Shown here one piece after another: positions 16,001 to 41,735 of a stretch of DNA of 45,631 nt. How positions within the stretch are numbered: position 1 is the stretch's first letter; the number at the start of each line of letters is the position of its first letter. The notes under the pieces are model-generated. The model searched no databases. It was not told the DNA's origin and saw nothing but the letters and a program-made list of their open reading frames with translations. Position numbers and translations under genes: made by a program. Origin of the DNA: Psammoneis japonica (taxonomy: Eukaryota); the NCBI GenBank assembly GCA_008632985.1, contig QPGO01000054.1, forward strand, positions 405,050-450,680, read 5' to 3'.

Positions 16001-19000
16001 ATGGCGTTCAGTGGCTTTGGCGCACCCGCTCCGGGTGGAGCGCCCGCACCAGCGCCTGCTGGTGGTGCCTTTTCCTTTAATACAGGAAATACAGCAGCAC
16101 CAGCCGCGGCTCCAGCAACAACGGGGTTGAGCTTTGGTGCACCAGCACCCGGAGCAGCAACGGGAGCGGCGCCGACTCCCGCAGCACCAGCGCCGGCGTT
16201 TAGCTTTGCGACGGGTGCACCTACTGCTGCACCAACGCCAGCGACAACAACAGGTACGACTCAGGCACCAGCTACAGGAATAAACTTTGGTGGAGGTGGT
16301 GCACCGGCGGCGGCGGCAACGCCCGCAGCAGCACCCGCAACAACAACACCGGCACCAGCAGCGGGATTTAGCTTCTCTTCGACTGCACCAGCGACAGGTA
16401 CCACACCGGCACCGGCTGCAACTACTACGTTTGGAGCCACTATTCCAGCCCCATCAGCTACTCCGGCACCGGCGGGTGCCTTTGGTGGTTTTTCTGCTAC
16501 ACCGGCAGCGGGTACAACACCAGCAAGTACGCTTGGAGCTGCACCAGCAACTGCAGCTACGCCAGCAGCTCCCGCAGCACCGACTGTAACTGTACAAGAT
16601 TTTGAAGAACAGTTTCCTTATTCATCCATACTGTCCAAGGTGAAACGCTTGCTACCGCTCGTTTCCAACGATCAAGCGACTTTGGAATGGCAAGAGCTCT
16701 TTCATATTTTACAGTGCCAACCTACTTCTACCGACAAGTCTGTCATTGGCCATTTGCTCTCCAAGCCACCACCCTTGCAGTGGAATGCCCGCAACGATGC
16801 GTTCCGGTCTAGACTACAAGCCAGTCCGACCGTTTTGTTGCAGGGCAAAACGGCCGGCCTTACGCCAGAAATGATTCAAGAAATTTGGCAATTGGCAGAC
16901 GATTTGCGCATTACAGAAGAATCGGCCCTTTGCCTCTATGCCCAAGCAAGTGACCCCAAGAAACGAAGGCTGATGGAGTCCAAGCTTCAAGCGTCCGGCT
17001 CAAGTCTGACGCTTGGAACCAACGTGCCCAAGGCCGCCCGAGAGCTCTTTTTCTACGAGCACAGCTGTGCGCTCACCACCGTCCTGTTGCTTTTGCAACA
17101 GCGACTCCAAGCTTCCTCGGATCAGACTACGCCCAACGCCTTTCTCGTGGCGACGGACCAATTGATTCAAAATGGTTTGGTGGAGAATTTAATTTCTCTT
17201 GTTCGTGAATACACGCTCTTGGCGGATAACTTGGAAAATGAGTGGGCACGGAAAAAGGCAAACATGCAAGTTCCAGCCTTTGGAGGAACGCCCGCGACGA
17301 CGTCGTCGAACGATAAGGGATTCTTGGCTGAGCTCTTGGACTTTGTGCAAAAGCAAAGGCAAATGGCGAGCGAGTGTCTCTTTTATCTTACCTATCACAC
17401 TCAGTGTACGCCACAAGAAGTGGCCTCCTTGATTGATATCGTCAAGGAATTGACCAATGGCAAAGATAACGCTACCGGTAGTGGCTTACCCATTTTGGAT
17501 CCGTTCAAGGACATTCCGTCTGCTTTTGAAAATGATCCAAACGCGGTCCCCGTCGCTACGGGACCGTTTGCGACGGCTTCACCCTTTGCCGCACCGGTGC
17601 CAGCCCAAAAGGAAAAGGATCCACTCAAGTGGCGAGAGGAATTGATCAAGAACGTGTGGGAGAGCGGGGGGAAACCGCAGCTACTCAAGTGTGTGTCGGT
17701 GTTGATCATGTCTATCATTTGTGCACTGGATGGACGACAAACCTTGATGGATCGAGCTCGGCATGGTCCGAATCAATTTGGAGTGGTAGGTTTGTTGTCT
17801 CATGTTGTAACTTTGAATCATGCGGAAACCACAATGGATCTCACATTTTATTCTTTTCTCTTTCACTGACTTTCGATCACAGGGAAATGCTCTACTTCCG
17901 CCGACCCAAACTGGTGTTCCAGGCTCAACAGATGACCTATTGCCGATTCATTCACGTCTTGACCCCAAGAAAGAGATGCACAAGGATTGGAAACGCAAAG
18001 ATATCTGGGGTCTGTTGGCCGCTTCGTATGCGCTCTTGCTTCTTCCTGTAGAAATCGTTTCTTCTTCTCCTCGTAATCGAAGCCGGTCGCACTCCTCAGA
18101 CAGCTTTTCACCGCGTAGAGGCCAGATTGACGTCAAGGCAACCTGGCGAGCATGTCTCGAAGCACCGACTGAGATGCAGTCTTTTAGTTTTGCGCGTCTC
18201 TCGTTGGTGCCTTCCTTTGCCAAGCGCTCGTACGGACCCGACTGCAAGTGCAACAATTACGAGGTAAGTCCAGCCGTTCTCATTCTCGTTTTTGTCTTGT
18301 CTGGTGTACAAGAGATACTCACATGTCCTGGTCCTTTAAGTTCTATATGTCTGTCCTTTCCGAGTTCGTCTCGAAGTATCTTGATGTCCTGTGTGCGTCT
18401 GGAAACGTTCCGATTTCAAGAGAGCAGTGGAAATCGGACGAGGAAATGGAGTTGCAAGTCAGCCGGGCTCAACGAGACCAGGATCGGAAGTTTGGGGACT
18501 GGTCGGGAACATCGACGACCGACGTGCAAGACATTCCCAACGAAGTGGATCTGTTAGGGAGGCCTGACTGTATGGACGACGTCATGGCGTTGGCCGTTAC
18601 GGTTTGTTCGACTGGTCCCACATTTGCGCTCAATTTCTGGTCTGTCGCAGATGAAGTCGTAATAGAGGGCGACACCTCTATCACTCGACCAACTTTGGTA
18701 CCAAGTCGGGCGATGCAGACAATGGAACTTCTAGTTGCAAAGGATGAGTCCTTACGGCCTGCTCATATATCTTTTCTTGGCGCGTTGGCCTTGGCACAGG
18801 GGCCTGAAGAAAACCCTGAATGCAGTGGGGCGGCTGTCATTCACAAGAAGCTGTCTGCCGAAGTTGACAACACCAAAGTGAGTTGGTACTCCATTCTCTA
18901 TAATATCGGGTGGTATGCCAAACAGTTGAATACTAGCAAAGCAGGACTGAGAGGCTCGACAGAAACGATGCGTACCAATACTTCCAGTGGTTTTGATACC

Positions 19001-22000
19001 GCGTCGACTGCCTATTACTACGGGGCGGACCAAAGCAACGGCGGTGGAAATTTTCAATCTTCGCAGTCGCAGCAAACAACGACCACAGCGTCAGCGGAAG
19101 CCAAGCCGACGGAACTAGGAGAGGCCAATCAAAGCACAATCTTGTCCCACCTTGCTCTAATTTCAAGCGTGGCGTCTCAATCTTCCGAAGCAAGAGCTGA
19201 CATTGCAGCAAAAGCAGTACCCATCAGCGATGGCGTGGGAGGAGATCATGGACTCACCATTCTGTTTTCCATGGCGATTGCTCCAGTTTCTCCAGAAATC
19301 CGAGGAGCTGTATTTGTCGCCATCTCCAACATTCTACGCGAACCATCGCTGTCATCTGTGAAAAACAATAAGACAGTGCAAGACATGGTGAGGAAAGGTT
19401 GGGATTTGCTGGAAGAAAGCCAGATCATCCCTATTGGGCTACTTGATCAGTACGCCGCTCCCACGGGAGTTTCGCGGACAGCGGTAATGGGCTTTCCGCT
19501 CTCCTCGACAGCTCAGGTATGTTTTGGCATTGAAATGTCGTTCTTTTTTCGATGGCGGCTTACTTGTCGTATTGCGTTTCCTTCACTTAAGGTCGCGACA
19601 GGAGCGGCAGAGCAGTTCGGCACTCCGTGGACGCCTCCTGATACTAGGTTTGGTATTATGTATGAAATGGAACACGTCGAGTCTCGCCAAGGAGTTTATC
19701 CTTCGACAGAGGGGTTGCTGCATCTGCTGACGACTCTTGTCATGGTTGGTGGTTGCCCCGCAGATCTCGGTCGATTCTGGAGGCCGCGCTCTGGTTGCTC
19801 CCCGTACGTCGAGTACGTAATCCATTTTGTGCTTCCTCGAGCACTGGGGACAAAGAATACTGACCAGGGTTTGCCGTTTCGAAATCTTGGAGACAAGAGC
19901 CGATTGGTCTGCCTGGCTCTCGAATTGGTGGAGGCCGTATTATCTCGCTATGTTGTTCCATCACCCCTTGGAAAGGTCTCTGGAAGCTCAGAGCCTCAAA
20001 TCACAAGCGCAGTGTTTGGTCTTTCGTCAGTTGCTGAAGCTATCTCCATACATCCGAATGAAGCTGACCAGAAAGCGTATGCGGCGGACTGCCGCGATGA
20101 ACTGGTGTCACACAGAACTAATTCTGGAAGCGACACGACTGGTGGCTTGTTGAGTGGTGGTATCGCGGCTCAAGCCCCGTATACACCATCAACAGCGGCT
20201 CTTACCGGTGACGCTGCTCTTCCTCTGCCCAAATCACCCGGGTTTGCGGTTCTGGTTGATATTTTGTCTTCCTTATACGGCGATCTCTTCAAATCAATCG
20301 TTTCTTTGTTGACTCAAGACTTCGCGTCCCGTGGTATGATTGAAATGTATGGGGATCCTGAATATTACGCAGTCGTTGCTGCCTCGCTGTTCGGGAGAAC
20401 ATCGCCATCATTCCATATTGCCAAGCAGGCTACTAATCAGAACCAGTCATCGTCGCCGAACAAGCACGCGTTACTAAAACCGCCATTTCCTGCTCATTAT
20501 CAGCCTGCACGTCTCATTGCTTGTGATGATGCGTCCGCAGTCTCGATTGATGGGACTTTTTGGAGAGAGCGCTCCGTCTCCCTGGCGCTTCGCATTCTTT
20601 GCGCAGCTGCAATTCGCGAAGACCAGTTCTCTCGGATTGTCAATGGCTTACGTCATCCGATGAAGATTGTGCCTGTTCTAAGGTTACACAGGCTTAGCGG
20701 TAGGCCTTCTGGAATCCGTGCATACGATGTGCAGGTGTCGAGGCTTGTTGATTTGTTGAAGTCCTCGGCCGGAGTTTGGGATTCTCAAGGTGCAGGAGAT
20801 GGTGTTTTCCCAACGATCATGAAGTATCTCGGATACGTGTCGCCATCTTGGAAACAAGACGCAGAGGTTTCCAGCCCAGCTGTCGCTCTGATGCTTTATG
20901 CTGATCGCATGTTACCGGCTTTGGAGACGGTGCGAACGCTCTGTGGTGCCTCCTCGAATGGAGGCACACATCTTGCTGTTGCAGTGGCGAGAAGGCTGAA
21001 AGTGTCATCCACGCGGGTAGAGATAACTTCTCACGCAGATATTGTACGCGTCATTTTGAATCTATTGGTGTCAAAGTTGCGAGGAGACTCGGCCAGCGAT
21101 GACGTGAACATCTCTCATATTATGTTAGGATTGCCAAAAACTTCGATTGCCACCGATTGGGACGCTGCCTCTGTCGACATATGCGCGGATTCATTTGATG
21201 TTATCGTGGAGCAGATATCCCGCATTGATTTTGTTCGCGACAGTCGCACCTCTAAATTTGCAGCAACGGCTTTTGAAATCTTGTTCTGTCTGGTTCGCAC
21301 GCAGGGCATTGACCAATCTAGAAAACTGACTCGAGTTCTGTACGCGGCACAACGGCTTCGCGGCATCGATTTTTGGTACAAGAATCTTCTTCTATTCATG
21401 GAGAGAGGAGGAGAGCAGCGTTGTATTCTAGAAGAAGCCACATCAAGCGCTGCGGATGAAAATGGCAGTGAGTTACTTCATTGTGTCTCCTGGCTGTTGA
21501 AAGGCGTATCGAACGAACTTCGGCTGTTGATGGGAGTTTCAACACAATTGAAGGACGGACCGATCCCCTCCCAGTTGTTGGGAATGGCGTCGCCGCGCCC
21601 AACCTCTTGTCGACGTCTTCTCTCGCTACTTTTTGCTGGGCCTAGTTTCCTAGCAGTTCACGCGCTGAACTACCTACCTCTGATACGGAAAAGCGGCATG
21701 AGCTCCTTGTCTTTGCCGTTGAATGAGGTGGAAGATATCCCCTTGCAGGGTCCCGCCGATGTTGTTGCAGGGTATTTCATCATCTCCATTGACAAATTAC
21801 GTCATAGATTTAGTAGCCAAGGAGAGAATGAAGCTGCTAATGTCGCGCGGAAATCGGCGGTTGATTGGGCCAAAGAATGGAACTTGGTTGTTACACGAGA
21901 CTGCGCTGTTTCTCATTTCGCGGATGCGCTACGTGTAGTGTTCGGTTCATCATTTGTCTTCTGTGGGAATCTTCTTCTCGGTGGCGGGGCGCCATTAGAC

Positions 22001-24193
22001 AGAGGGGGGGTCTTGCAGTATCTGTCTCTCATATTGTCACGGCTGACGGACGAGATGAACGGCATTAGTGATTCTCGTGGTGTAAACGACGCTTTGTACC
22101 ACAAGGCAGCTCTTGAGATGGCTAGAGTCGCTCTAGTTCTGGTTGAGGAGATCGCTGGCGCGAAGGATAGCACACAGCAACCTCAACTTCCTCTCGATAG
22201 CGGAGATGCCGTTAGTCTTTATGTGCAGCTCTCGACGGCGGTCGCGGTGTCCTCGAAGGTTGACGGCCAAACTTTACATGAGGTTGAAAGGACTGTTTTG
22301 CTCGGGAGATGCCTTGCTTTGATATCAGAAGCTGTATTTAGAAGTCCAAATGGGTTGCACAACGTTGATGGGGAGAAAGAAAACATCTTACTTGCGGCCT
22401 CAGCATTGGCTAGAATTGCGAGCAAGCCAGTGAGCGGGTCATCTAGGGTTGACTGGACTCCTCGCGGCAACCGAAATGCTTCTATGATTCGAACTGCCAG
22501 GTCGTCTCTTTCTACTTTACTAACGTGTCACGAAAACGACGACGATGCACGTGAGGAATCCTTGGTTTTCAAATTATTCAAGATGGGTCCTGCACGTCGT
22601 GACAGAGCTGAAAAGGATTCAATATCATCCCTCCTTTCTCTTGTGACTACCTTGGACGACGATGTCTACAACATCTTATCTAGCATTGCACTCTGTCGTT
22701 TCGGCGCGGAGCTTCTGCATGAAGCCGGTTTGCTCGCTGTTCTTGAACGGGCTGCTCAGCGCTACACCGTAGAAGAAGGCCGAGTTCGCGCTCAGGTATC
22801 GTCGACGAATCAACACGTTGACATACGCACCCCATCGTTTCTGTCGGGACACTTTTCGCTATTGAATGCAATGCTGTCGACTCGGTCACTTTCACCGGAC
22901 AACCGCCAGAAGGTCGCAGAGGACGCAAAAGAAATTATCCGTTGTCACATCCCAATAGTGGAGCGTTTGATCCTCTCATTCCCAACCGACGGGGACGTAG
23001 TTTTAGAGTTCACGAAGTGCCTTTACTTGGTATCGAAACCGCGTGACTTCGACAACCCTGCTGGCGGTCAGAATCTATGGCAACTGGACAGCGTAAAGTC
23101 ACGAAGCCATATCGACCAAAGGAATTGGGCTGCTGTCGAGAAGCTAGTGCTTGAACTCACCTACCATGTGTCACAATACCCCTTCCCCCGGAGACTTCTG
23201 CCAGTACTTCCTGCGGCATTAAATGACACCCAAACCTCTCAGGAGCCTTCAAATCATGTTGTTTCCGTCTCAAATGCAGCCACGAGAATCTGGTGGGACG
23301 CCGTTGAAAACCGGCTTCTAAGTAAGGAACGGAATCCGCTTCCAGAGCCTCCTAGAATCGCGGCGAGCAGTGGAGTTTGGTATAATGATGTACCAGATCT
23401 GAACAGCAGCGGTGGGTGGTCCGACCAACACTATGAGTTCTGCATACAAGCTTCTCGGATTCTAGATTCCAGTTTGTCATTTTTGAATCAGCGAGTGCAG
23501 CTTTCGCCTCCACTCCGCATTGATTGTTTCGCACTGGCAAAAGGATTTTGTCGATGCGCGGACTCCGCAAGAGTGAGTATCCCATGTCGTTTTCCAGTTG
23601 CGTTGTAACTAGTTGGTTCTATCAGCGTCTCTGACTTACTCGTTATTTGATCTATTCATCAGGCCATCGAGGGTAGGCTTCGTACGCTCGCAGGCGCGAC
23701 TAGTGGCTCGTTGGTGACTGACGGTGTCTTCAACATAAGCATGACAAGCAACGAGGAAAGCACGAGAAGCAAACAAATTGAGCTGGAGTATCTCTCGCTC
23801 CTGGGCCCTATCATCGGTCGTTGTGCAGAGAAATTTCTCGTGCTCACTTTATCATACCTTCGCGGGGTTGCTCGTGAATCAATGACTGGGTCTGAGATGA
23901 TAGGAAGCACCCATCAACCGAAATGCCAGTTGCGGGTTTGTCAGAGTTGATGCTAGCTTCCCTCGATCACACGCAGGTTGAGACGATGGTGAGTCGTCTG
24001 TGCCCAATGCATCGTCTTTCTTAATCCATTCCCGCCAACTCCCATTTCCAATTCGCCTTTTGTTTATTTTATTTTTCAGGGTGTTGGATGCATCGGATAT
24101 GAGAGAGGTGACGAAAAAAAGAGAGACTTTGCTAGAGAGATATCGAAAAACCTGCGGAAGGAGCTGCAGGGCGAAATGAAGATGTTTACCTAA
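16001..24193 (+). CDS. NUP205: Nuclear pore scaffold protein Nup205/Nup192 with N-terminal FG-repeat extension
   Basis: Nup205-like blocks EIWQLADDLRITEESAL, TDQLIQNGLVENLISL, QRQMASECLFY, GIMYEMEHVESRQGVYPSTEGLLHLL and PADLGRFWRPRSGCSPYVEYV. Introns about 17786-17882, 18264-18340, 19517-19591, 23573-23662 and 23989-24079. One missing base near 23911. Stop TAA at 24191-24193. Confidence 0.8.
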
Positions 24194-24308: not shown

Positions 24309-26129
24309 TCACTGGATAATGCGGAAGTCAACACAGACACGAGATTGTCGCTTTGCTATCGATCCGCAGCTAGCAACGTGAATAATTTCCACTGACAATC
24401 CCATTTTGTCGCACGCTTTCTGGATCGTTTGCTTAGTCCGTTCGCATCCTCCAGCTAGCTCAGGATCAGACGCAAAATCGTACCAGTGGCATTCTCCATT
24501 CTGCCGAAGCATGGGCAACAGCGCCTCCAGAAACACTGCTCCCGCGTCACCTTCACCCAAGTCTCCATCGAGTGCACCTTCCTTGGGTCTCGGAGCTACG
24601 ATTCGATCAAACGATTTCTCCTCGAGTGTACCAAGAACTTCCAAAACGTCTCCCTCCACGATATGTAGCCGCTCCGCCGCCCCTTTGCATTTAACTGCCT
24701 TGTTTCTCTCTAGCATTCGTTTTGCTCGTCTGGCGCACTGCACAGCAATGGGATTCAATTCAACAGCCACAACAGATGACGCCTCAGTCCTACCAGCAAT
24801 TTGCATTGCATCCATGGCAACCCCCGCGAATAGCACCAAGACATTTTCTCCTCTTGCAATTTGTTGACATATTCTCAAACGTTCGGCACCCATGCGAGGA
24901 CTAAAAAATGTATGATTCAAATCAACTACACATTTGATTCCATATTCAGTGTGTGAAGTTACAAGCGGTGATCGGTTCGGACCAGCTAGAATTACAAGGC
25001 CGCTTTCGCCAGGCGAGCGTTCGGTGCCAGACAAGTTGCTTGTTCGTGCCGCACATATCTGAAAGAATGCAAAACAAAGACTGTCAGTGAGCCTTGAAGT
25101 TAACAAGAACATCAGAACAGATTGTGCTTAACATCGTACCTTGACTGCCTTATTTCTCCTGAGAATCGCTTCTCCAACCGCTTCTCTGGCATCCTTGTCG
25201 CCGGTCGGCATGGAATGGAGTAGAGCGACATCCCCAATCACATCGTAGCTCTTTGGGATAGCGATTTCTGAGATGCCATCAAGCAATGCAGAAGTATTAT
25301 CTTCACTTTCATCTACACAAGACGATGGCATTTCTCTCACTGCCTGAGCGAAACGTTCGATCTTTTCCCAGTTTCTTTCGTGACGAGAGTTGACCAACTC
25401 CTGAAGCCAACCTTCCAAATTCTCGTAAAGAAATCTTCCATCCGGTGCGCAGAGAGGCATATCTAGCCCTTCATCACCCCAAATTGCAACAAGGTATGAA
25501 GATGAATCAGTATCATTATGCCTCCAAGAAGTAAGACCCACATTTTTGAACGCAGGTCTAGCTGCCGCCATGAGAGCGTTTGCACCCGTTAGCGAGCGGC
25601 AAGCGACGTGCAAAATAAATGGTTCGAATCGAAGCCACACTGTCCGAGCGCTATCTGACCCATTTGCATCTGACAAAGAAAACGGAGAGACAACATTATC
25701 ATCTCGAGAACTAGTCATGTCTGCTCCGCTCGCCTCTTCGTTCGATCCCTCGTGTTGTTCTTTGTGATCGTATTGGCCAACAGATCGAAGCACGTCCGCT
25801 CCACCTGTCGGATCCTTGTCGAGCGTTGTCAAATCAAAATACCGCATGGCATCCTTAACTAGATCATGGGCAATTCTACATCGCTCAAACGCAATTGTGT
25901 CTTCATGATTGATGCTCTTTGTCCCACGTCCCCGATAGAGAAAGCATCTCCCAGAACACGATGATGTCGTGTAGTATTCTTTTCGTCCATTAATGAGAGA
26001 ACAAATATCAACGGCTCGCACATCGATTCGACCTGCAAAGGATTTATCACGTTTTCCCAAGCACTGGTTCTTTTTGTTTTCAAAGTTCTTGCAACGCCGT
26101 GTCCAGGAGGAAGACACCGACGACGCCAT
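24309..26129 (-). CDS. TYW3: tRNA wyosine-pathway fusion: TYW3/Taw3 methyltransferase + Trm5/TYW2-family (Met10+-like) SAM domain
   Basis: N-terminal DKSFAGRIDVR..INGRKEYYTTSSCSGR and RFEPFILHVACRSL (TYW3). C-terminal SYDVIGDVAL, FFSPRMGAERLRI, GENVLVLFAGV, AVELNPIAV, DRIVAPRPK, HWYDF. Exons 26129-25140 and 25058-24309. Confidence 0.88.
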
Positions 26130-26351
26130 TGCACCGACCAATCCAAAGCGACCGTACCAAAAACAAAAAAGTGAGGTGGAAAAAAACGGACGGTGGAGCG
26201 GACGCTTCAGTCTGTCCGCTTGCTCCCCGCCATTGCTGGTTTCGCGCGAGAACGCGCCGGGTTGGTACCGAATTTTTTCACGTTTCGTCACAATCGCGGA
26301 GCCATGGCGTTCGAGTAGGTGCTCTCTAGAGAGTACCGCACTTTAACCATC

Positions 26352-27911
26352 ATGAACAAGTACAACGTACGGGCCATACGAAACGACTTGGATTCTTGTA
26401 TTCGCTATAATTCCTGGAGCAAGTTTCGCAAAATATTCCAACCTCTTCAACCAGATCTTCAACAAGCTGTGGTGAGGGAACAGGTGCGCAGAAACAAGCA
26501 AACTTCGTCTCGTTCGTTGTTGTATACGCTCTGTCGATGCATCAAGCCGTCATCCCATCCTCCTATCGATATAATAGAATCAGTTCTTCAGGTTTCTCCG
26601 CCTTCGTTATTATCTCAGTCTGGTAATCGCACAAGCACTACAACGCCGCTACAAATCGCAATCGATCGTCAGGCACCACCCTCCGTTGTGGAAGCCTTGT
26701 TAAAGTATGACAAAACAAAGGAGTCATTGTATCAGAAAGGACGTGGAGGAGATACACCCTTGTTAGCAGCTGTTCGACAGAGGCAACGAATAGTACATTT
26801 TCAACAAACGAGCAGCGATGAATCAATTGTGTCCGTGCTGGTGCGACATGACCGAAGAAAGCAGTCTCTTTTGATCCCCAGCAAGACGAAACAAAGAGTT
26901 CCACTCTACTATGTTGCAAATCAAGAAATTGCCTTCCTTTTGAGTGAGGAAGATGATGAGAAAGATGGTAATGAAGAGATCAATCTAGACGAAGAATTAG
27001 AATATCTATTGATCCAAACATATCAAGCGATTGAAATGCAACAGGGAAGACTCACGCCCGAAGACGAGCACTCATGGAAACAAGAGGAGAGCCAAGAAGA
27101 TACAAACGCAGGTGGCTTCTTTCTCAATGCTAGTTCCACTAGTAGATCGGATACCGATTCAGTGGCTGAAGGCGAGGGCGATGAAAGGATGACAAATCGT
27201 GCACAGCTGCTACTCCGTGCAACGTTGGCATGCGCTCATTTGCTGGGATCGAAAAACAGCACCAAACTCCTCCAGTACTTATTTCGTAACTCTGAGAATT
27301 TGAACCAACTGGATGAACAGGGTAATTCACTACTCCATCACGCATGTCGAGCGCAAGAATCAGATGCATTTCTTGAGCCATGCTTTGTTGACGAGGAGTC
27401 ATCTGCAAAGAGAAACCTTCTGCAACACTTGATTACCATTAATCCACGAGCGCTGACTCTCCAGAACCATAATGGTGAGACTCCCCTTCACGTGGCCATT
27501 CGATGCAAAAAGCGCTGGGAATTCTTGCGGCATTTGTGTCCAGAATCTTTCGCTACTACAATCCTTCAAGCACAAACAAATGAGGGTCGGCTTGCCTTGC
27601 ACCTTGCGATTGAAAATTATCCTCCCGACTCTAACGAGATTGTACAATTGTGGAAAGGTTACCCAGATGCATCAACTGCCATGGATGGGAAAGAACGATT
27701 GTTTGCATTTCAGCTTGTTGGTGCCTTTAGCACGCTCCATCAAATACAAGAACCACCATCTTGCTCCTCGAAACGACCCAAAGAAGATTCCATAAAATCT
27801 TGCTCCAGCGGCAAAGATGAAACACGCAAAAATGACGACATGCACGACCTCGACCTCGCTTTCTTCTTCCTACACGCCTTTCCTCAAGTGCTGCAACAAC
27901 ACATTCGCTAG
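26352..27911 (+). CDS. Ankyrin-repeat protein
   Basis: TPLQIAI, GDTPLLAAV, GNSLLHHAC, GETPLHVAI and GRLALHLAI repeats in a single long ORF. Confidence 0.85.
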   Translation: MNKYNVRAIRNDLDSCIRYNSWSKFRKIFQPLQPDLQQAVVREQVRRNKQTSSRSLLYTLCRCIKPSSHPPIDIIESVLQVSPPSLLSQSGNRTSTTTPLQIAIDRQAPPSVVEALLKYDKTKESLYQKGRGGDTPLLAAVRQRQRIVHFQQTSSDESIVSVLVRHDRRKQSLLIPSKTKQRVPLYYVANQEIAFLLSEEDDEKDGNEEINLDEELEYLLIQTYQAIEMQQGRLTPEDEHSWKQEESQEDTNAGGFFLNASSTSRSDTDSVAEGEGDERMTNRAQLLLRATLACAHLLGSKNSTKLLQYLFRNSENLNQLDEQGNSLLHHACRAQESDAFLEPCFVDEESSAKRNLLQHLITINPRALTLQNHNGETPLHVAIRCKKRWEFLRHLCPESFATTILQAQTNEGRLALHLAIENYPPDSNEIVQLWKGYPDASTAMDGKERLFAFQLVGAFSTLHQIQEPPSCSSKRPKEDSIKSCSSGKDETRKNDDMHDLDLAFFFLHAFPQVLQQHIR

Positions 27912-35499: not shown

Positions 35500-38400
35500 C
35501 TATGTAGAGCGGAAGGTAACAGCAGAGGGAGGGCACGGAGGTAGCTGTAGAGACGGTAGAGTAAAAGGGTCGAAGGACGCAAGACGAAGGGCGTTTTGTG
35601 GAAGGTATGGGTGAGGAGGGGGCAGGGAGAGAGGAGGTGAATCGGAGGATGTGCGTAGAAAGGTGAAGAACAACGTTGTAGCCAAGAGTTTGGGTGGCCC
35701 ACTGGGATGGGGTGGCTGTACGGTAGGTGCTTCCAAAGCGATCGGCGGACAGGCGACGCCATGCGGAGTCAGCAGAGGGAAGGATTGCAGACGGAGACGA
35801 TAAAGCGTAGAGGAAGGCGGAGTAGGAGGCATCGGAGTGACGAAGGTCAGAGGAAGAGGACCAGGGTGGCTTGGGCTGAGAGCAGACGGAGGGGATGTAG
35901 AACCAAAGAGCAAGCGGTGGGCAAAGTAGCCGAGACCACCAAGGTGATCTACAGTGAAGGGGAGCAGGAAGACACCATTGTTGTCAAGCGAAGAAACAAC
36001 AAGGGATCCATCGGTGGAGGAAGCAGAGGGGCCAAGAAACTTCAATCTCGCGCTCGAGTGGTGTGCCTCAGTTAAGATAGGAGAAGAGGGGGCAGGCAGA
36101 CCTGGAGGAGGGCGAGAGGAAGCTTGAGGGACGGTGACGTCCACTGCAATGCAGTGATGGCGGGAGGGAGCGGAAAGGGAGGCGGGAGGGGGGATTGAAA
36201 TGCCGACATCGGCGGGACGGAGAAGCGGGCGGTGGGGAGTAGGTTGGTGGGTTCAAGATGAACATCATTGGGGGATCGACAGAACTCTGCAAGAGGACCC
36301 AAAGTTTGGGCTAGGATGAAAACAGTGTCACGGAGACCATTGGAAAGCTTGGACTTGTGAGCACGGCGGCAAGAAAAGGCATGATCACCATAGGCATCCA
36401 GAATGGCATGGCCACAGGGACAGGGAGTGTTGACAAGGGACGGAGGAAGGATGGGGAGACGAAGCTTACGAAGGGCAGCAACAGCGCAGGCGTCCAAAGA
36501 AAGGTGGGAGCTTGGAAAGCGACGAGAGAAGGAATGAAGAGGGAGGCTTGCAAGCGGAGATGGCAATGAAGGGAGTGAAGATTGCACGTCGTAAGATGAG
36601 TTAGCAAGGATGGAGGTCACTGCTTGTTGCTGATGTTCATGGTAGAGACGACGGGCCAGGCCGGGGAGAGTGGCCGATTTAACCAGGGCAGCCAAGGAAG
36701 AAGAGGAAAGGGCAGAGGCGGAAGCCAGAACGGGAGCACAACGGCGGAAGAGCACATGGAGTCGTAGGGAAGAGCGAGGGTTGGACCAGGAAGACAGGGA
36801 GAGCCGAAAGCAGCGCGGAAGGGAAACAGAAGCGCCAGATGGCAGGCTGACACCGTGTGAAGCAAAGTGGAACGAGCGGAGAAGCGACACCAAGAAGGAA
36901 GGAATGGCGGCAGCTGTTGGGTCCCGGAGACCAAACCCGCCCAAGGAGGCAGGAAGGAAGGCGATGGCAATAGAATGGTCGGGAAAAGGAGCGGCGAAGG
37001 AAGTGACGTAGTGTAGAAAGCGGTGAGCATTGGTGAGGAGGAAATCTTGAAACGGAGAGGTCCAGAGAAAGGGGTCGGGAGGATCATCGGGGTCGAAGTT
37101 GCAGCAAAAGTCAGCTCCAAGGAGGTGAGCAGAGGATGGAACAAAACAGTGCTTGAAGAGTTGAGCCTGGGTTTGTTTATCATGGAGACGGGTGAGAAGC
37201 ACATCAACTTTGTCGGAGAGAGTAGAGGAAGTGTCGGAAAGGAAAGAGGTGGCGAAGTCGTGGGAGCCGAGGGGCTGTCCAAGGAAGCGAACACCAGAGG
37301 TGAGTTCGGGGTTGCAAGAGGGGTCATTGGCAGGGTTTAAAAGGAAAGTGCAGCACGGAGAGAATCGGCGCGGAAGGGAAGAGCAGGGATGGGCTAACAC
37401 CGGAATGGAGGTGAGGATCTTGGTTTTACGGAGGTTGAGGGAGATTCCGCAGGGGGCACCGAGGGCGGAGAAGCGTTCAAGGAACCATGGGAGTGCGGAA
37501 TGGGGAAGGAAAGCGTGAGCATCGTCAATGTAGGAGCCAACTGAGACAGAGGAACGGCCAGGGATACGTTCTTGAAGCTCTTGGTTAATCGGACGAAGAA
37601 CCAGAGAGAGGACCAGGCTGGCGAAAACAGGGCCGAGAGGGCATCCTTGGGCAAATCCCTCTTCTTGAAGAAAGGAGCCCCAGGAAGAATCGGGTCGGCG
37701 ACACCAACATGTTGGAACTTTGACACAGAAGGTCAAAAAAGGAAGCAGAGGATGGAAGGCAGGGGTGGAGGTGAGAACGTGTCGACAGGCATCTCGGGAT
37801 GCTTCGTTGAACATGTTGACGAGGTCAAGAAGAAGAAGAGCCTTGGCAGAGTCGGCAGAAGAGAGACATCGTTCAATGTTGGCAAGAGCAGAGTGAATGA
37901 GATGATCGAGGCCACCTTTGACACCAATGCCAAATTGGCCATCTGGGAGGAGGCATTCGGTAAATGCAGAACCAAAGAGAGTCATGACGACGGAGCCGGC
38001 AATGCGACGAAGAGCAGCACCGACGCCAATGGGGCGAAGCTTGTTGAGGTCGCTGGCATCTTTGTGCAGAGCGACAAAGCAGTTCGAAGCAAATGAGGAA
38101 TGGACGGAGGAAGGAATGGAGCCATGGAGCAGAAGAAGGACAAGCTCACGAAAGGATGACAAGTGGGGGCGTTGAGCAACACCTGTTGGGGTTTTGGTGG
38201 AACAGAGGGCGCAGGACTTGAAAAGGTCGGTAGAATCAGCAAAGACACCGGCAGCAGTCCCAGGCTTACATTTGGAGAGAGCGGAGAGAAGAGCATCGGA
38301 GGAGAGCTCAACAGGCTCATTATGAAGGGAGGAGGCCGAGCGAGTTGAAGGAGGATTGGGCAGGTCGGAGGGGTGCAGGCGAGGAGGGTAGAGCTTGAGG

Positions 38401-39218
38401 ATGGCAGGAAGGCGCTCAGGAGTGACGGCAGCAACAGGAAGCGCAGAGGTGAGCTTGGAGTGGGCCGAGTGAAAGTTGTCTTCGTCGGCGCAGACTTGAG
38501 CGGAGTGGCAATAGGTGGAAGCAGAAAAGTCGGGGGAAGATGGGGAGAGGCGTGGCGCATGGGAGCAGGCTTCGTGGCAGAGTTGGTGAATGCAGCCACG
38601 GCGGAAGAGGGACAAGCGGGAGGCAATGGCGGGCCAAACTTGGAGCGTGGCGGACAGGAGCAAGAATGAGAGCTTCAAAGAGTAAGAGCAGCTTCCAGAA
38701 GGGAGCGAGTCACGTTGCCACGTAGGAATGAGGTGGGAGGGGTCAGAGAGAGGCTGGGAGGCGGCCAGCACCCAGCTTGTCACATGATGAAGAGCAGAGT
38801 AGAGTTCCTTACGGGCGGAGGATGAGAGCTTGCGGCGGCAGGAAGCTCGGAAAGGTGGAGGCTCGAGTGCAAGAGCATGGAGCCATTGTAGCGAGGGGCC
38901 CCAGTCACCTAGATTGTGGAAGGACGAGAGAACAATGTCAGTGTCAAGGGAAGAGCGAGGAGCGAAGTGCTTGTTCTGCAAGTGATTGCGAAGGTGGGTG
39001 GTAGACAGGCAGGTGTGTTGGCCATGATTGCAATGCCTGCAGACATGTAAACCAGCGGCATCGAAGAAGGACGTAGGCACATGAGAAAGCGAGAGGCGGG
39101 GATGCTCCTGGCGAAGATGGCTGCGTGTAGAAGTAGGAAGGGATGATGCATCAATGGAAGGAGGGGACCAGGAGCAGAAGGGGCAAGTTGGCGGGGCACG
39201 GGCTTCGGTGGGTTCCAC
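35500..39218 (-). pseudogene. Retrotransposon pol (ZnF-RT-Zn knuckle-RLE), frameshifted
   Basis: The 1048-aa ORF 36072-39218 plus ORF 35500-36144 carry the motifs above, with several frame breaks. Confidence 0.85.
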
Positions 39219-40864
39219 GAGGCGATGAGATCGCGGAGGGAGTTGACATCAGGGGCTGCAGCCCGGATGGCTTCTTCATAGAAAGGTTGCCAGGTAGAAA
39301 GGCGGGCGGGCAGTAGCACCTGCGAAGGCATCAAGGACATCCAAGAGTTCCATCTCGCGCTGGGACTGCTGGGGAGAAACCGAGTCATCAGATTCGGTCT
39401 GCACAATTGCATCGGGAGCGGTGGGGGGCGGAGAGGTCTGCAAAACTACGGCAGGAATGGCGGGGGGCGGAGAGAGAGCATCGGGAGAAGAGTGGGGACG
39501 TTTGGAGGGAGGAGGCTCGGTGGTGAGGGAGCGGGCTTGGGGAGGATGGGAGGAAGGAGATGCAGCAGCAGGGAGCGGATCTTGGGGCTTGGGGAGCTGC
39601 CAGTCTTGAGCAAGCAGCTCAAGGGCACGACACGAGAAAGAATCTCGAGAGGGAGCGGGCGGCTGAAGAGCAGCAGAGGCGTAGGATGGGGAAGTCATGC
39701 TGTCGTCATGGGTAGATTCCGCCACAGAGGCAAGGAGATCCAAGGGAAAGCCGGGACAGTATGTGGGTTGGCATCCACAAGAGCAATTGTGCACGGAGAC
39801 GGGAAAAAGAGCAGCTTGCACTTGATTGGGAGGGAGTCATGAGCAGAGAAGATGGGGATGAGGGAGCGAAGATTGGTTGCAGCAAGGAGACGACTGATGC
39901 CAGGTTGGGTGAGAGGAAGAAGAAGACGGTCAGAGACAACCACTTTCATGTTGCTCTGACGCGAAATGAGCTCGGAGAGGGCGTTGCAGGTGGGAGCAAA
40001 GTTGGCCGGGGCTGGGAAGGGAATGATGGTGGCAGAGGTCCCCAGGATGGAGAAGGAGGCAGGTGGCGCATTGGATGGATTAGTGACATGAAGTGGGGTG
40101 TTCCAGACGGCATCGGAGGCAGTGGAAATGTAAAAAACCGGAAGAGAGCGGCGTCGCGCCTGGGCCGAGTTAGCGGGGCATTGCGAAGGACGAATTCCAA
40201 CGAGATTGAGAAAGGCAGGACAGTCTCAGAAGGATTGAAGGATGGGATTGGTCGCAGTGCTGGAGATCTTGCCAACAAGGAAGGAATAAAGGCGGGATAG
40301 AAGAAACTCAGAAGTGCATCGAGAAGAACCGCAGAGGGTTGGAGAGGGGCCAGCAAGGACACCATGAGCCTTTTCTTCGAAAGAGTTGCAGGCCGGGATC
40401 ACAAAGGTGCAGTGCCGAGCCCAGGATTGTCCACAGCCGAAACCGGAGAGAAGTCAGGGTGGAGAAAATTGGAAGGGGAGCCAGCGGAGCGGAAGGGGGT
40501 GAAGTGCGATGCAGGGTGCAGATGCCATTTCTGAAGGAGAAAAGAGAGCGCTTGGCTTCGGAAGGATTCGAAGGAAAAGGTGGTGCCGTCGGGGGTCACC
40601 GGGTGAAGAGCAACGTGAAAGCAGGACGCCCACTGATTCTGGTGAGGACAGGAGCGCTTCTTAGTTTCGGCAAGCATCACAGAGCCAAGAGTGAGGAGGA
40701 GCGGAGAGACGCGCCGGCTGTGATGCTCCAGCGTCTTAAGAATGATGTCGCGAATGACATCAGACGTGAGAGCAACAGCAGGCACGTCAGGCAGGTCAGT
40801 AGGATGAAGGACCTGAGCTAAAAGCTTAACATCAGCAGGAGGAGCGGAGGCGAGAGTAGACATG
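39219..40864 (-). pseudogene. Upstream coding region of the retrotransposon (ORF1 or N-terminal part of one long ORF), disrupted
   Basis: Successive minus-strand ORF pieces 40399-40917, 39946-40365 and 39276-39821 starting MSTLASAPPADVKLL. A single base insertion near 39195 would join this region to the zinc-finger region. Confidence 0.55.
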
Positions 40865-41635
40865 ATCAAGCGAGAAGAGGGAGTTGCAGAGAGTCGTTGT
40901 TGTGTGCGAATCGCCAAAAAACAGCGACAAGGTCACAGAACGTGTAGAAAGATAGGAGGAGGGAAGGTGAGGGCATGACGTGGGCAATCGTACACGAATG
41001 ATCGTAGAGGATGCATAGAAACATAGGGAGGAAGGCACAAGCAGAAGCGCGAAGGGAGTCATGGAAGAGAAAGGGGCAGTAGAGAGGGCCGAAGGGTAGG
41101 GGAAGCTGTAGAGGAGTACGGAAGCAATCGTGTTCGAAGGGGCGTAGAAAGGCATGTGGAACGATAGGAGAGGAGTCATAACTAAAGGCGCGAAGGGAGT
41201 CATGGGAGGAAGGGGGGCAATTGAAGGGATTGCTGGAGGAGGAAATGGGGAAGAGGTCAGGGAGCAGAGAGGGGCCATAGGGAAAAGAAACGAACAAGGC
41301 AGAGAGGGAGAGAGGGCATAAGGAAGAGCAGAAAGGGAAATGGCAGGGGGCAGTTGTTGGGATGAAGAAAGGGAGTGAGGAAAAGTGAAAGGGCAATGGA
41401 ATGAGCAGTTGGAAGGGCAATTGGCAATCGTGGAAACTGGGGGCCAGTAGAAGGGGCGTAGAAATGTACAGGCGAAAGGAGCGAAGGGAGTGACCGAAAG
41501 GGAATGAAGAAAGGAGACGATGGCAAAGGCAAGAACGGTAGGGAAAAGGATCCGCAAAAAGAAGGATGGCCATGGCGGAGGGTCGGGAGGCCACTTCGGG
41601 AGGTGTAGCAAAGAGCTACTGCATCCATCATGGGA

Positions 41636-41735
41636 NNNNNNNNNNNNNNNNNNNNNNNNNNNNNNNNNNNNNNNNNNNNNNNNNNNNNNNNNNNNNNNNN
41701 NNNNNNNNNNNNNNNNNNNNNNNNNNNNNNNNNNN
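41636..41735. other. Assembly gap (100 N)
   Basis: Run of N; true length and adjacency across it are unknown. Confidence 0.99.

What the first reader, a model, noticed from the sequence alone, without database searches (positions are those of the whole stretch)
24309..26129. TYW3 fused to an archaeal Trm5a/Taw22-like domain: possible methylwyosine pathway in a eukaryote
Seen: the C-terminal domain has FFSPRMGAERLRI, VLVLFAGV (no acidic D of DMFAG), EGDVLEVL, FDRIVAPRPK (PxPK at 24582-24593) and HWYDF, with no Kelch region. Established, from memory: canonical Trm5/Trm5b has NLPK, whereas bifunctional archaeal Trm5a/Taw22 has PTPK and adds the C7 methyl giving isowyosine (imG2), which Taw3 converts to methylwyosine (mimG). 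Eukaryotic TYW2 instead transfers aminocarboxypropyl, and the plant fusion is TYW3-Kelch-TYW2. Inference: this single protein could make imG2/mimG at tRNA-Phe position 37, a modification regarded as archaeal.
Basis: partly seen in the sequence, partly recalled or inferred. Interest (0 to 1): 0.75.

Follow-up and report, generated by a model that had tools for sequence, protein, structure and literature searches.

The report
Diatom TYW3 fused to Trm5a-like methyltransferase
A diatom gene joins a wyosine N4-methylase (TYW3) to a tRNA methyltransferase domain that looks like the archaeal Trm5a/Taw22 type rather than eukaryotic TYW2, which suggests that these algae may make a tRNA-Phe modification so far regarded as archaeal.

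Summary
On the minus strand, 26129..24309, a two-exon gene with an 81-nt intron encodes 579 aa. It has an intact TYW3 domain followed by the D2 and D3 domains of a Trm5-family methyltransferase. There is no Kelch region and no D1 domain. The C-terminal domain carries Trm5-type motifs (FFSPRMGAER, VLFAGV, APRPK). Canonical TYW2/Taw2 sequences instead have MFSxGNxxE[KR], D-x-[FY]-x-G and LGL[IL]P[ST] in 15 of 15 cases. The best solved-structure and NCBIfam matches are P. abyssi Trm5a and Taw22, but the scores lie far below the curated equivalog cut-off. The gene belongs to a conserved clade found in diatoms, pelagophytes, dinoflagellates and Chromera. In the maximum-likelihood trees this clade sits among archaeal Pro-type Trm5. 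An AU test rejects grouping it with plant-like TYW2 (p 0.0004). The same test does not reject a sister position to the whole TYW2/Taw2 clade (p 0.10). Diatoms also hold a second paralogue, TYW3-Kelch, which has no TYW2 domain in 0 of 120 proteins. The best reading, at about 45%, is C7-methylation of imG-14 followed by N4-methylation, giving imG2/mimG. The rivals are a substitute acp-transferase and an m1G37-only enzyme. No whole genome was available, so TRM5, TYW1, a stand-alone TYW2 and TYW4 could not be checked. Eukaryotic TRM5 was never compared.

The parts
25140..26129 (-). Exon 1 (330 aa). It starts at the ATG at 26129 and holds the TYW3 domain, a linker, and the start of the Trm5 D2 domain.
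   Evidence: Relatives align from residue 1, and exon 1 ends exactly where exon 2 takes over in 5 of 5 relatives.
25059..25139 (-). Intron of 81 nt with GT..AG ends. It contains an in-frame TAA.
   Evidence: One search gives the sequence. One search gives the in-frame translation with its stop and shows collinearity across the junction.
24309..25058 (-). Exon 2 (249 aa plus stop at 24309-24311). It holds the rest of D2 and the Rossmann-fold D3 catalytic domain of a Trm5-family methyltransferase.
   Evidence: PF02475, E 7.5e-22. (P. abyssi Trm5a, E 5e-20). (AF2 model, mean pLDDT 94.5). (Foldseek top hit 5hji, E 6e-19, TM 0.76).
25335..26075 (-). TYW3/Taw3 N4-methyltransferase domain (residues 19-265), including a low-complexity insert.
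   Evidence: PF02676, 122.8 bits; the family profile matches the Taw3 structures AF_2059, PH1069, APE0816 and SSO0622.
25947..25970 (-). TYW3 signature TTSSCSGR, matching (S/T)xSSCxGR. The conserved Asp (RID, residue 36) and His (ILHV) are also present.
   Evidence: The sequence is. The signature definition is from PMC5311493 (passages).
25149..25262 (-). Start of the Trm5 D2 domain (SYDVIGDVALL...). No D1 domain precedes it; the TYW3 domain sits there instead.
   Evidence: TYW2_N_2, E 0.0049, below the cut-off; the family profile aligns to PaTrm5a from residue 85 onward, so D1 (residues 1-84) has no counterpart.
24879..24908 (-). Motif A, FFSPRMGAER. This is the Trm5/Taw22 type and is aligned to PaTrm5a F165, M170, E173 and R174. 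It is not the MxSxxNxxxR/K of Taw2/TYW2.
   Evidence: alignment; PMC5113207.
24582..24593 (-). PRPK at the NPPY site. It aligns with PaTrm5a 260-PTPK-263, with NLPK in Trm5b, and with G-L-[IL]-P in TYW2.
   Evidence: P156, R157, P158 and K159 are invariant across 37 family sequences. Mechanistic meaning from PMC5714064.

Best explanation
The gene encodes one polypeptide that carries two SAM-dependent enzymes of wyosine synthesis at G37 of tRNA-Phe. At the N-terminus is an intact TYW3-type N4-methyltransferase. At the C-terminus is a Trm5-family domain (D2 plus D3, no D1) of the Pro-type, or Trm5a/Taw22-like, kind. The most likely mechanism has three steps. TYW1 first makes imG-14. The C-terminal domain then accepts the tricyclic base, because Pro replaces the Asn that clashes with it in Trm5b, and transfers a methyl group to C7 to give imG2. 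The fused TYW3 domain finally methylates N4 to give 7-methylwyosine (mimG). What is shown: the gene model, the domain architecture, the motifs, the similarity ranking, and the conservation across diatoms, pelagophytes, dinoflagellates and Chromera. What is inferred: the substrate, methyl rather than acp transfer, the order of steps, and the product. The stated confidence applies to the functional claim. Confidence in the structural description, that this is a Trm5a-like and not a TYW2-like domain fused to TYW3, is about 0.9.
For: (1) Motifs. The window has FFSPRMGAER, VLFAGV and APRPK. Canonical TYW2/Taw2-type sequences have M[FY]SxGNxxE[KR] and a D-x-[FY]-x-G motif in 15 of 15 cases: the plant and unnamed proteins P0289 and P0290 and 13 of the 15 metagenome ORFs kept. 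PMC5113207 states that motif A, MxSxxNxxxR/K, separates Taw2 from Trm5b, and that Trm5a has Pro/Thr where Trm5b/c have Asn/Asp.
(2) Structural rationale. PMC5714064 reports that Asn265 of NLPK clashes with the third ring of imG-14 and that Pro in PTPK admits it. By the alignment the window keeps PaTrm5a F165, M170, E173, R174, E213, D243, P260, P262, K263 and F284, and has Arg at K324. All seven residues mutated in PMC5113207 (R134, F165, E173, R174, E213, P260, P262) are conserved.
(3) Similarity ranking. Single sequence against the PDB: PaTrm5a 5e-20, PaTrm5b 1e-14, MjTrm5b 1e-10, Taw2 1e-4. Family profile of 37 sequences: 163, 139, 107 and 74/71 bits for the same order. In NCBIfam the Taw22 model is the best Trm5-family model for the window and for 18 of 22 family members.
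(4) Architecture. D1 is absent, as in many Trm5a proteins and in Taw2. The domain sits C-terminal to TYW3, where TYW2 sits in the plant fusion.
(5) Trees. The family is one clade (100/88, 27 rows) lying among archaeal Pro-type Trm5. The TYW2/Taw2 type forms a separate clade (100/99, 15 rows). An AU test rejects family plus 12 plant-like TYW2 rows as one clade (p 0.0004).
(6) Archaeal analogue. In Altiarchaeota, whose Trm5 is among the nearest relatives, 52 of 61 genomes have Taw3 and 0 of 61 have a match above the Taw2 cut-off. That is a Trm5(Pro)+Taw3 gene set.
(7) The TYW3 signature residues are intact.
Against: No biochemical or mass-spectrometry data exist for any member.
NCBIfam Taw22 scores 90.8 bits against a cut-off of 550, and Trm5b follows only 19 bits behind. 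For 4 of 22 family members Trm5b is the better model.
The nearest non-fusion relatives (DPANN and Altiarchaeota, with MPLPK) score best with Trm5b models in 20 of the 24 (of 25 scanned) that matched any family. They are probably housekeeping m1G37 enzymes, so Pro at this site does not by itself prove C7 activity. One Asn-type protein (P0210) nests inside the Pro-type clade.
PaTrm5a pocket residues Y197 and Y318 are not conserved; the window has Asp and Ile there. Thr261 is replaced by an invariant Arg.
AU tests do not reject the family being sister to the whole TYW2/Taw2 clade (p 0.154; p 0.103).
The trees contain no experimentally characterised Taw22, Taw21 or Trm5b and no eukaryotic TRM5. 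The archaeal rows were chosen as the best hits to the query, so sampling is biased.
Diatoms keep a second, intact TYW3 fused to the TYW4-type Kelch propeller. That protein is easiest to explain if acp-bearing intermediates are still made.
The presence of TYW1 in this genome is unverified.
Confidence: 0.45

Rival explanations
1. The Trm5-like domain is the diatoms' functional TYW2. It would be an aminocarboxypropyl transferase that evolved on, or replaced TYW2 with, a Trm5a-like scaffold. The fusion would make yW-86 and then yW-72, and the separate TYW3-Kelch protein together with an LCMT-type enzyme would finish yW.
For: The domain occupies the position of TYW2 in TYW3(-Kelch)-TYW2 fusions. 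Diatom TYW3-Kelch proteins lack any TRM5/TYW2 domain in 0 of 120 cases (Pfam column, no BLAST hit and no motif). Plant-type proteins carry that domain. This is a complementary pattern. Attheya has both proteins. Among the 36 of 80 metagenome TYW2 loci that also hold TYW3 or Kelch sequence, none matches diatom TYW3-Kelch better than it matches the plant protein over a long stretch (27-37% identity). Retention of the TYW4-type Kelch domain implies that an acp group is installed by something. A sister position to TYW2/Taw2 is not rejected.
Against: Motif A is the methyl-transfer type (FSPRMxxER), not the MxSxxNxxxR/K type held responsible for acp transfer. Pro replaces the critical Gly199 of Taw2. 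The Taw2 models score only 33 and 24 bits, over half of the domain. An AU test rejects grouping with plant-like TYW2. A stand-alone canonical TYW2 in diatoms was not excluded, because no search able to find one could be run.
Confidence: 0.22
2. The domain is only an m1G37 methyltransferase dedicated to tRNA-Phe. The fusion would couple the first step (m1G37) and the last step (N4-methylation of imG-14). With TYW1 the product would be wyosine (imG), as in Torulopsis utilis.
For: All catalytic residues of Trm5 m1G37 chemistry are present: the equivalents of R134/R145, E173/E185, R174/R186 and P262/P267. The nearest relatives are single-copy archaeal Trm5 proteins that must make m1G37. For 4 of 22 family members the best model is Trm5b. 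imG as an end product in a eukaryote is known (PMC5113207).
Against: D1 is absent. PMC5024318 reports D1 in all known Trm5b/c, the m1G37-only enzymes, and says it is missing only in some Trm5a. The P260N result shows that the Asn/Pro site tunes G versus imG-14 use. A general TRM5 would make a second m1G37 enzyme redundant, although the presence of TRM5 was not checked. Fusions in this pathway link consecutive steps.
Confidence: 0.13
3. The similarity to Trm5a is convergent or plesiomorphic. The family would be an ancient eukaryotic paralogue of TRM5 acting on a different substrate, meaning another tRNA or another position, that merely happens to be fused to a TYW3-like domain.
For: Eukaryotic TRM5 was never compared. 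The TYW3 domain is a long-branch eukaryotic paralogue (stem length 1.11). Chromera and dinoflagellates have stand-alone forms, some with N-terminal extensions.
Against: The fusion to TYW3, which has intact catalytic residues, ties the domain to wyosine chemistry. No protein of 430 aa or more among the best 150 representatives has a plain TRM5-like architecture (33 of 33 such proteins scanned).
Confidence: 0.1

Closest known systems
Archaeal Trm5a/Taw22 (P. abyssi PAB2272, PDB 5HJI/5WT1; N. equitans NEQ228), a bifunctional tRNA-Phe m1G37 / imG-14 C7-methyltransferase
   Same: It has the D2+D3 fold (Foldseek E 6e-19, TM 0.76). It has Pro at the first NPPY position and a PxPK motif. Motif A is the F-F-x-P-R-M-x-x-E-R type. 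The D-to-hydrophobic change before FAG is shared (LVPFAGV against LVLFAGV). There is a basic residue at K324 and Phe at F284. Trm5a is the best PDB and NCBIfam match.
   Different: Identity is only 32-33%. The score is far below the equivalog cut-off (90.8 against 550 bits). D1 is replaced by a TYW3 domain. Arg replaces Thr261. Y197 and Y318 are not conserved. A 12-residue acidic/Gly insert follows PRPK. The host is eukaryotic. The activity is untested.
Plant/stramenopile/apicomplexan TYW2/3/4 fusion (TYW3-Kelch-TYW2; example here Riccia fluitans P0289)
   Same: TYW3 is N-terminal and a PF02475 domain is C-terminal in one polypeptide of the wyosine pathway (PMC2938197 passages).
   Different: There is no Kelch propeller. 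The C-terminal domain is not TYW2-type (28% identity over 102 aa, 40 bits; different motif A and NPPY site). The TYW3 domain is only about 24% identical and forms a separate long-branch clade.
Archaeal Taw21 (S. solfataricus SSO2439), a monofunctional imG-14 C7-methyltransferase
   Same: It lacks D1 and is Pro/Thr-type at the NPPY site, and it works together with Taw3 (PMC5113207 and PMC7761594 passages).
   Different: Motif A in Taw21 is YEH, with His replacing the Arg. The window has AER. The Taw21 model scores only 35.6 bits over part of the domain.
DPANN/Altiarchaeota single-copy Trm5 (MPLPK type)
   Same: These are the nearest non-eukaryotic sequences: 32-39% identity across the whole domain and tblastn down to 1e-37. 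They are Pro-type and co-occur with Taw3 without Taw2.
   Different: They keep D1 in many cases (Trm5_N). They have YFSPRL and MPLPK rather than FFSPRM and APRPK. They are stand-alone and presumably housekeeping.

Membership tests
TRM5/TYW2 superfamily (PF02475, COG2520) | A Pfam PF02475 match above the gathering score, with the Rossmann D3 fold preceded by D2. | tested here: met
   78.5 bits against a cut-off of 28; pLDDT 94.5; all top Foldseek hits are Trm5 or Taw2.
TYW3/Taw3 (PF02676) | A Pfam match, plus an invariant Asp, the (S/T)xSSCxGR motif and a His (PMC5311493). | tested here: met
   122.8 bits against a cut-off of 27. The RID Asp, TTSSCSGR and ILHV are seen. The signature is defined in the passages.
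Archaeal Trm5a/Taw22 | Pro/Thr instead of Asn/Asp at the first NPPY position. | tested here: met
   APRPK at 24582-24593 aligns with PTPK of PaTrm5a. It is invariant in 37 of 37 family sequences.
Archaeal Trm5a/Taw22 | Motif A with Glu-Arg (E173/R174). This is neither the YEH of Taw21 nor the MxSxxNxxxR/K of Taw2. | tested here: met
   FFSPRMGAER aligns with FFNPRMKGER.
Archaeal Trm5a/Taw22 | The NCBIfam equivalog NF047728 score reaches the curated cut-off. | tested here: not met
   90.8 bits against 550. Family members score 66-134 bits.
Archaeal Trm5a/Taw22 | It groups in a tree with experimentally characterised Taw22 (PAB2272, NEQ228), apart from Trm5b/c. | tested here: inconclusive
   No characterised sequence could be brought into the trees. 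The family nests among uncharacterised Pro-type archaeal Trm5, and its sister group is weakly supported.
Archaeal Trm5a/Taw22 | C7-methylation of imG-14 in tRNA-Phe. | not testable with these tools
   This needs an enzyme assay or LC-MS.
TYW2/Taw2 (acp transferase) | Motif A of the form MxSxxNxxxR/K. | tested here: not met
   The window has FFSPRMGAER. The motif is present in 15 of 15 TYW2/Taw2-type sequences.
TYW2/Taw2 (acp transferase) | Gly at the first NPPY position (G199 of PhTaw2). | tested here: not met
   The window has Pro. P0289 and P0290 and the metagenome TYW2 sequences have LGL[IL]P[ST].
TYW2/Taw2 (acp transferase) | Phylogenetic membership in the TYW2/Taw2 clade. | tested here: not met
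   The TYW2/Taw2 clade has support 100/99 without the family. Family plus plant-like TYW2 is rejected (p-AU 0.0004). A sister position to the whole clade is not rejected (p 0.10).
Eukaryotic TRM5 | Orthology to yeast or human TRM5 (an Asn-type NLP motif and an N-terminal domain; this description is recalled). | not tested
   No eukaryotic TRM5 sequence could be obtained. The only indirect point is that none of the 33 proteins of 430 aa or more among the best 150 representatives has a plain TRM5-like architecture.
Plant-type TYW2/3/4 fusion | A Kelch beta-propeller between TYW3 and the PF02475 domain. | tested here: not met
   There is no Kelch family in either exon. Only about 20 residues lie between TYW3 and D2.

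The most novel reading that the evidence does not exclude
Diatoms, and probably also pelagophytes and dinoflagellates, would make isowyosine and 7-methylwyosine (imG2/mimG) on tRNA-Phe with a single TYW3-Taw22-like polypeptide. A modification and an enzyme type published as unique to archaea, with 'no homologs in eukaryotes', would then exist in a major group of eukaryotic algae, possibly alongside a canonical yW branch served by the separate TYW3-Kelch protein.
Probability: 0.4. Interest if true: 0.8.

Novelty: new variant of a known kind. Interest (0 to 1): 0.66.

Why it matters
Wyosine derivatives at G37 of tRNA-Phe hold the reading frame, and their pathway is a textbook case of divergence between archaea and eukaryotes. 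Reviews call imG2 and mimG archaea-unique (PMC7761594, passages). [quoted passage not shown] The finding bears on three things. It makes a clear prediction that is easy to test in culturable, transformable diatoms by LC-MS of tRNA-Phe, knockout and recombinant assay. It adds a data point on how the Trm5, Taw22 and TYW2 activities diverged. It shows that current automatic names for these proteins ('Trm5', 'TYW3', 'yW-86 N4-methyltransferase') hide a probable difference in chemistry. If the domain instead turns out to be an acp transferase, that would be an independent origin of TYW2 chemistry, which would also be notable.

Tried and rejected
The whole genome was not available. TRM5, TYW1, TYW2 and TYW4 in this organism could therefore not be checked, and no search I could run was able to find a stand-alone diatom TYW2.

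The search of earlier findings returned nothing.

The look-up of sequencing runs listed no RNA holder, only 3 DNA rows from one sample.

The two ESM Atlas calls (32 and 52) gave only generic TRM5/TYW2 clusters and no diatom TYW2 cluster. This is not evidence of absence.

I tried to fetch reference archaeal Taw2 through a phylum-wide genome search. The phylum turned out to be Altiarchaeota and held no Taw2 above the cut-off. I reused that result as an observation.

The named control genomes of the genome search gave tallies only, with no loci.

The supplements of PMC2938197 could not be read. They may list the diatom orthologues. Umitsu 2009 and PMC2517134 are not held.

I rejected a TYW2 identity on motif and AU-test grounds. 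I rejected reading the weak PF25133 'TYW2 N-terminal domain' match as evidence for TYW2, because the same model matches archaeal Trm5 strongly.

I rejected an organellar role for the window protein because TYW3 starts at about residue 19, which leaves no room for a presequence (this is an inference).

Taw3 and Trm5 are not adjacent in the Altiarchaeota genomes I compared by eye (G025, G027, G030 and G032).

Literature searches for any description of a eukaryotic Trm5a/Taw22 or of diatom wyosine enzymes found none.
Full report
**Gene model.** On the minus strand an ATG at 26129 opens a frame that runs to 25140. It is followed by GT...AG (25139..25059, 81 nt, with an in-frame TAA), and the frame resumes at 25058 and ends with a stop at 24311..24309. 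Exon 1 gives 330 aa and exon 2 gives 249 aa. In 5 of 5 relatives tested, the last residue of exon 1 and the first residue of exon 2 map to adjacent residues; for P0001 these are 344 and 345. The splice is therefore supported by homology. No RNA run was listed for this DNA. GC content is about 47-50%. The flanking genes are a Nup192-like ORF and an ankyrin-repeat ORF, and the closest proteins are all from diatoms. The window is therefore nuclear DNA of a diatom. Its own protein is not in the collections; the best match is 75% identical.

**Domains.** Pfam places TYW3 (PF02676, E 1.6e-35) on residues 19-265 of exon 1 and TRM5-TYW2_MTfase (PF02475, E 7.5e-22) on residues 34-223 of exon 2. No Kelch family is found. 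The TYW3 part keeps the signature defined by Currie et al. (PMC5311493, passages): an Asp (RID), TTSSCSGR and a His (ILHV). A profile of 37 family members aligns to P. abyssi Trm5a from residue 85 to residue 331. That span is D2 plus D3. D1 (residues 1-84) has no counterpart, and TYW3 takes its place. An AlphaFold model of exon 2 is confident (mean pLDDT 94.5). Its best Foldseek matches are PaTrm5a (E 6e-19, TM 0.76), then PaTrm5b, MjTrm5b and Taw2.

**Which kind of Trm5-family domain.** The literature separates the subfamilies by two sites. Motif A is MxSxxNxxxR/K in Taw2. At the NPPY site, Asn/Asp marks Trm5b/c and Pro/Thr marks Trm5a (PMC5113207, passages). Gly199 is critical in Taw2 (PMC7761594, passages). 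Wang et al. (PMC5714064, passages) explain the difference: Asn265 of NLPK clashes with the third ring of imG-14, whereas PTPK admits it. They also note that F165, M170, Y197, F284, Y318 and K324 line or contact the imG-14 pocket.

The window has FFSPRMGAER, VLFAGV and APRPK. By the HMMER alignment it keeps F165, M170, E173, R174, E213, D243, P260, P262, K263 and F284, and it has Arg at K324. It has Asp at Y197, Ile at Y318 and Arg at T261. R134 corresponds to the invariant R14 of exon 2.

To see real TYW2, I used an Altiarchaeota Taw3 as bait. This recovered a liverwort TYW3-Kelch-TYW2 protein (P0289) and an unnamed 1451-aa one (P0290). Both read MFSSGNV[ST]EK, D[LM][FY][AC]G[IM]G and LGL[LI]PSS. 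A metagenome scan seeded with their TYW2 domains gave 15 uninterrupted ORFs. All 15 have M[FY]SxGNxxE[KR]. Three of them are about 286 aa long and score best with the Taw2 models. BLASTP of the window domain against P0289 aligns only 102 residues at 28% identity. Archaeal Trm5 proteins align over all 249 residues at 30-39%.

**Similarity ranking.** For the single sequence against the PDB, the order is PaTrm5a 5e-20, PaTrm5b 1e-14, MjTrm5b 1e-10 and PhTaw2 1e-4. For the family profile the scores are 163, 139, 107 and 74/71 bits in the same order. In NCBIfam, Taw22 scores 90.8 bits, Trm5b 71.7, Taw21 35.6 and Taw2 32.8/23.7. Among 22 family members, Taw22 is the best Trm5-family model in 18 and Trm5b in 4. 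All these scores are far below the curated equivalog cut-offs (550 and 600). This is a resemblance, not membership.

**The family.** A search for longer proteins listed 120 proteins, all carrying both PF02475 and PF02676. The named ones are from Attheya, Cylindrotheca, Nitzschia, Cyclotella, Thalassiosira, Pseudo-nitzschia, Amphora and Conticribra. The exhaustive representative search found 50 clusters below 1e-30 and 1293 below 1e-3. Cluster look-ups added Aureococcus and Chrysophaeum (pelagophytes), Pyrodinium, Prorocentrum and an unnamed dinoflagellate, and Chromera velia. The Chromera, Prorocentrum and several unnamed proteins are stand-alone D2+D3 forms without TYW3. Across 37 aligned members P156, R157, P158, K159, E59, R60, F51, F52, H191 and F195 are invariant.

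**Nearest relatives.** After the family, the best hits are proteins of about 270-370 aa with YFSPRLxxER and MPLPK. Named examples are Altiarchaeota. A scan of prokaryote genomes found 586 confirmed relatives. The best 80 were in records named as Woesearchaeota, Nanoarchaeota, Altiarchaeota, Aenigmarchaeota and 'uncultured Methanosarcinales' MAGs, plus one Desulfobacterales MAG. That scan used one motif pattern, so it is biased toward this type. Of the 25 such proteins scanned, 24 matched a family, and 20 of those 24 score best with Trm5b models and 4 with Taw22. All 33 proteins of 430 aa or more among the best 150 were scanned. Of these, 20 are TYW3 fusions, one shows PF02475 only, and 12 are archaeal-type Trm5 with extra domains or inserts. 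None looks like a plain eukaryotic TRM5.

**Trees.** All trees cover exon-2-equivalent columns, 215 in number.
- A quick tree of 111 rows makes the family one clade (SH-aLRT 92; core clade 99) among Pro-type archaeal Trm5.
- A careful tree of 66 rows gives the family 93/90 and its core 99/98. TYW2 gets 100/100 on a stem of 1.34.
- With 13 more TYW2/Taw2-type rows (79 rows in all), the family gets 100/88 and the TYW2/Taw2 type gets 100/99.

The sister group of the family is not resolved (supports 26-57). AU tests gave three results. Family plus all TYW2/Taw2 rows as one side of a branch is not rejected (p 0.154 with 2 TYW2 rows; p 0.103 with 15 rows). Family plus the 12 rows nearest plant TYW2, excluding the three Taw2-like rows, is rejected (p 0.0004, delta lnL 81).

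The family is therefore not a diverged eukaryotic TYW2, but its deep position relative to the TYW2/Taw2 stem is open. There are three limits. The trees hold no characterised Taw22, Taw21 or Trm5b and no eukaryotic TRM5. The archaeal rows are the query's own best hits. The ten metagenome rows I call plant-like come from unknown organisms.

**The TYW3 half.** In a 51-row tree the eukaryotic TYW3 domains group together (support 99) apart from Altiarchaeota Taw3. Within them the fusion-family TYW3 forms its own long-stem clade (99, stem 1.11), separate from the Kelch-linked TYW3. Identity to those is about 23-25%.

**A second diatom TYW3.** Using P0291 as query returned 120 proteins with TYW3 plus Kelch repeats. 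The named ones are from Chaetoceros, Fragilaria, Seminavis, Attheya, Dactyliosolen, Epithemia and Fistulifera, and two are MMETSP transcripts marked complete. None of the 120 lists PF02475. None gave a BLAST hit (E up to 0.01) to the window domain, to either TYW2 domain or to an archaeal Trm5, and none contains the motifs. Attheya has both proteins. Of the 80 metagenome TYW2 loci, 36 also hold TYW3 or Kelch sequence. In none of them is the long TYW3/Kelch match closer to diatom TYW3-Kelch (27-37%) than to the plant protein. Iyer et al. (PMC2938197, passages) describe TYW3-Kelch-TYW2 for plants, stramenopiles and apicomplexans. Their supplements, which may list the diatom genes, could not be read.

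**Interpretation.** It is firmly shown that this is a TYW3 domain fused to a Trm5-family D2+D3 domain. That domain has the methyl-transfer type of motif A and the Pro-type NPPY site. It lacks D1, it is not TYW2, and it is conserved in a group of SAR algae. I consider three functions.
- C7-methylation of imG-14 followed by N4-methylation, giving imG2/mimG, at 0.45. This fits the motifs, the structural rationale for Pro, the loss of D1, the position next to TYW3, and the archaeal Trm5(Pro)+Taw3 gene set (52 of 61 Altiarchaeota genomes with Taw3, 0 of 61 above the Taw2 cut-off).
- A substitute acp-transferase, at 0.22. This fits the complementary loss of the TYW2 domain from diatom TYW3-Kelch and the retention of the TYW4-type propeller. 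It goes against motif A and the Pro/Gly site.
- m1G37 only, giving imG, at 0.13. This fits the housekeeping nature of the nearest archaeal relatives but not the loss of D1.

**Novelty.** The proteins are in public databases under automatic names: 'tRNA G37 N-methylase Trm5/...Tyw3', 'Methyltransferase TYW3 family protein', and the yW-86 N4-methyltransferase name in UniRef. My eight full-text searches found no paper describing a eukaryotic Trm5a/Taw22-like enzyme or diatom wyosine genes. The abstract of PMC4024628 states that Taw22 'has no homologs in eukaryotes'. I rate this as a new variant of a known kind.

Noticed in passing
Not in the window; proteins P0291 and P0316-P0434: Diatoms carry a second TYW3 paralogue fused to Kelch repeats. 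It has intact TYW3 signature residues but no TRM5/TYW2 domain in 0 of 120 proteins, unlike the plant TYW3-Kelch-TYW2. What installs an acp group in diatoms, if anything does, is open.
   Followed up: partly
Altiarchaeota genomes G001, G002 and G007-G065: 52 of 61 genomes have a Taw3. Each has one strong Trm5-family gene of the MPLPK (Pro) type. 0 of 61 have a match above the Taw2 cut-off. This gene set predicts imG or mimG rather than yW-86 in this phylum.
   Followed up: partly
Proteins P0200, P0245, P0268, P0178, P0242 and P0197: Some archaeal-type Trm5 proteins have unusual architectures. In three (P0200, P0245, P0268) the methyltransferase domain is split by an inserted xylose-isomerase-like TIM-barrel (AP_endonuc_2) region. 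The other three are N-terminal fusions to a family-2 glycosyltransferase, a GDPD phosphodiesterase and a VanZ domain.
   Followed up: no
Proteins P0284-P0286 and P0288: These Taw3/TYW3 domains are fused to PF09997 in proteins of about 380-440 aa of unknown origin. They form their own clade in the TYW3 tree.
   Followed up: no
window 36072-39218 (-) and 36000-42000: A 1048-aa ORF has a reverse-transcriptase domain (RVT_1, E 1.1e-10) and a YIDD motif. It lies in a stretch with extreme strand asymmetry (GC skew about +0.39, AT skew about +0.3). A run of unknown bases shows as X in an ORF near 41.6 kb. This is probably a retroelement beside an assembly gap.
   Followed up: partly
window 18248-23608 (+) and 26319-27911 (+): The neighbours are a Nup192/Nup205-like nucleoporin ORF and an ankyrin-repeat ORF. 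The ankyrin ORF starts about 190 nt from the ATG of the fusion gene on the other strand, so the two genes are head to head.
   Followed up: no
Protein P0172 (Chromera velia) and proteins P0217, P0223 and P0262: These are stand-alone PRPK-type D2+D3 proteins without TYW3, found in Chromera and in dinoflagellate or unnamed sources. The Chromera protein has a hydrophobic/basic N-terminal extension that could be a targeting peptide.
   Followed up: no
Protein P0303 (Aureococcus, 1220 aa): An older gene model joins the TYW3-Trm5-like protein to a RING-finger region. The newer model of the same locus is 555 aa, so the long form is probably a merged model.
   Followed up: no
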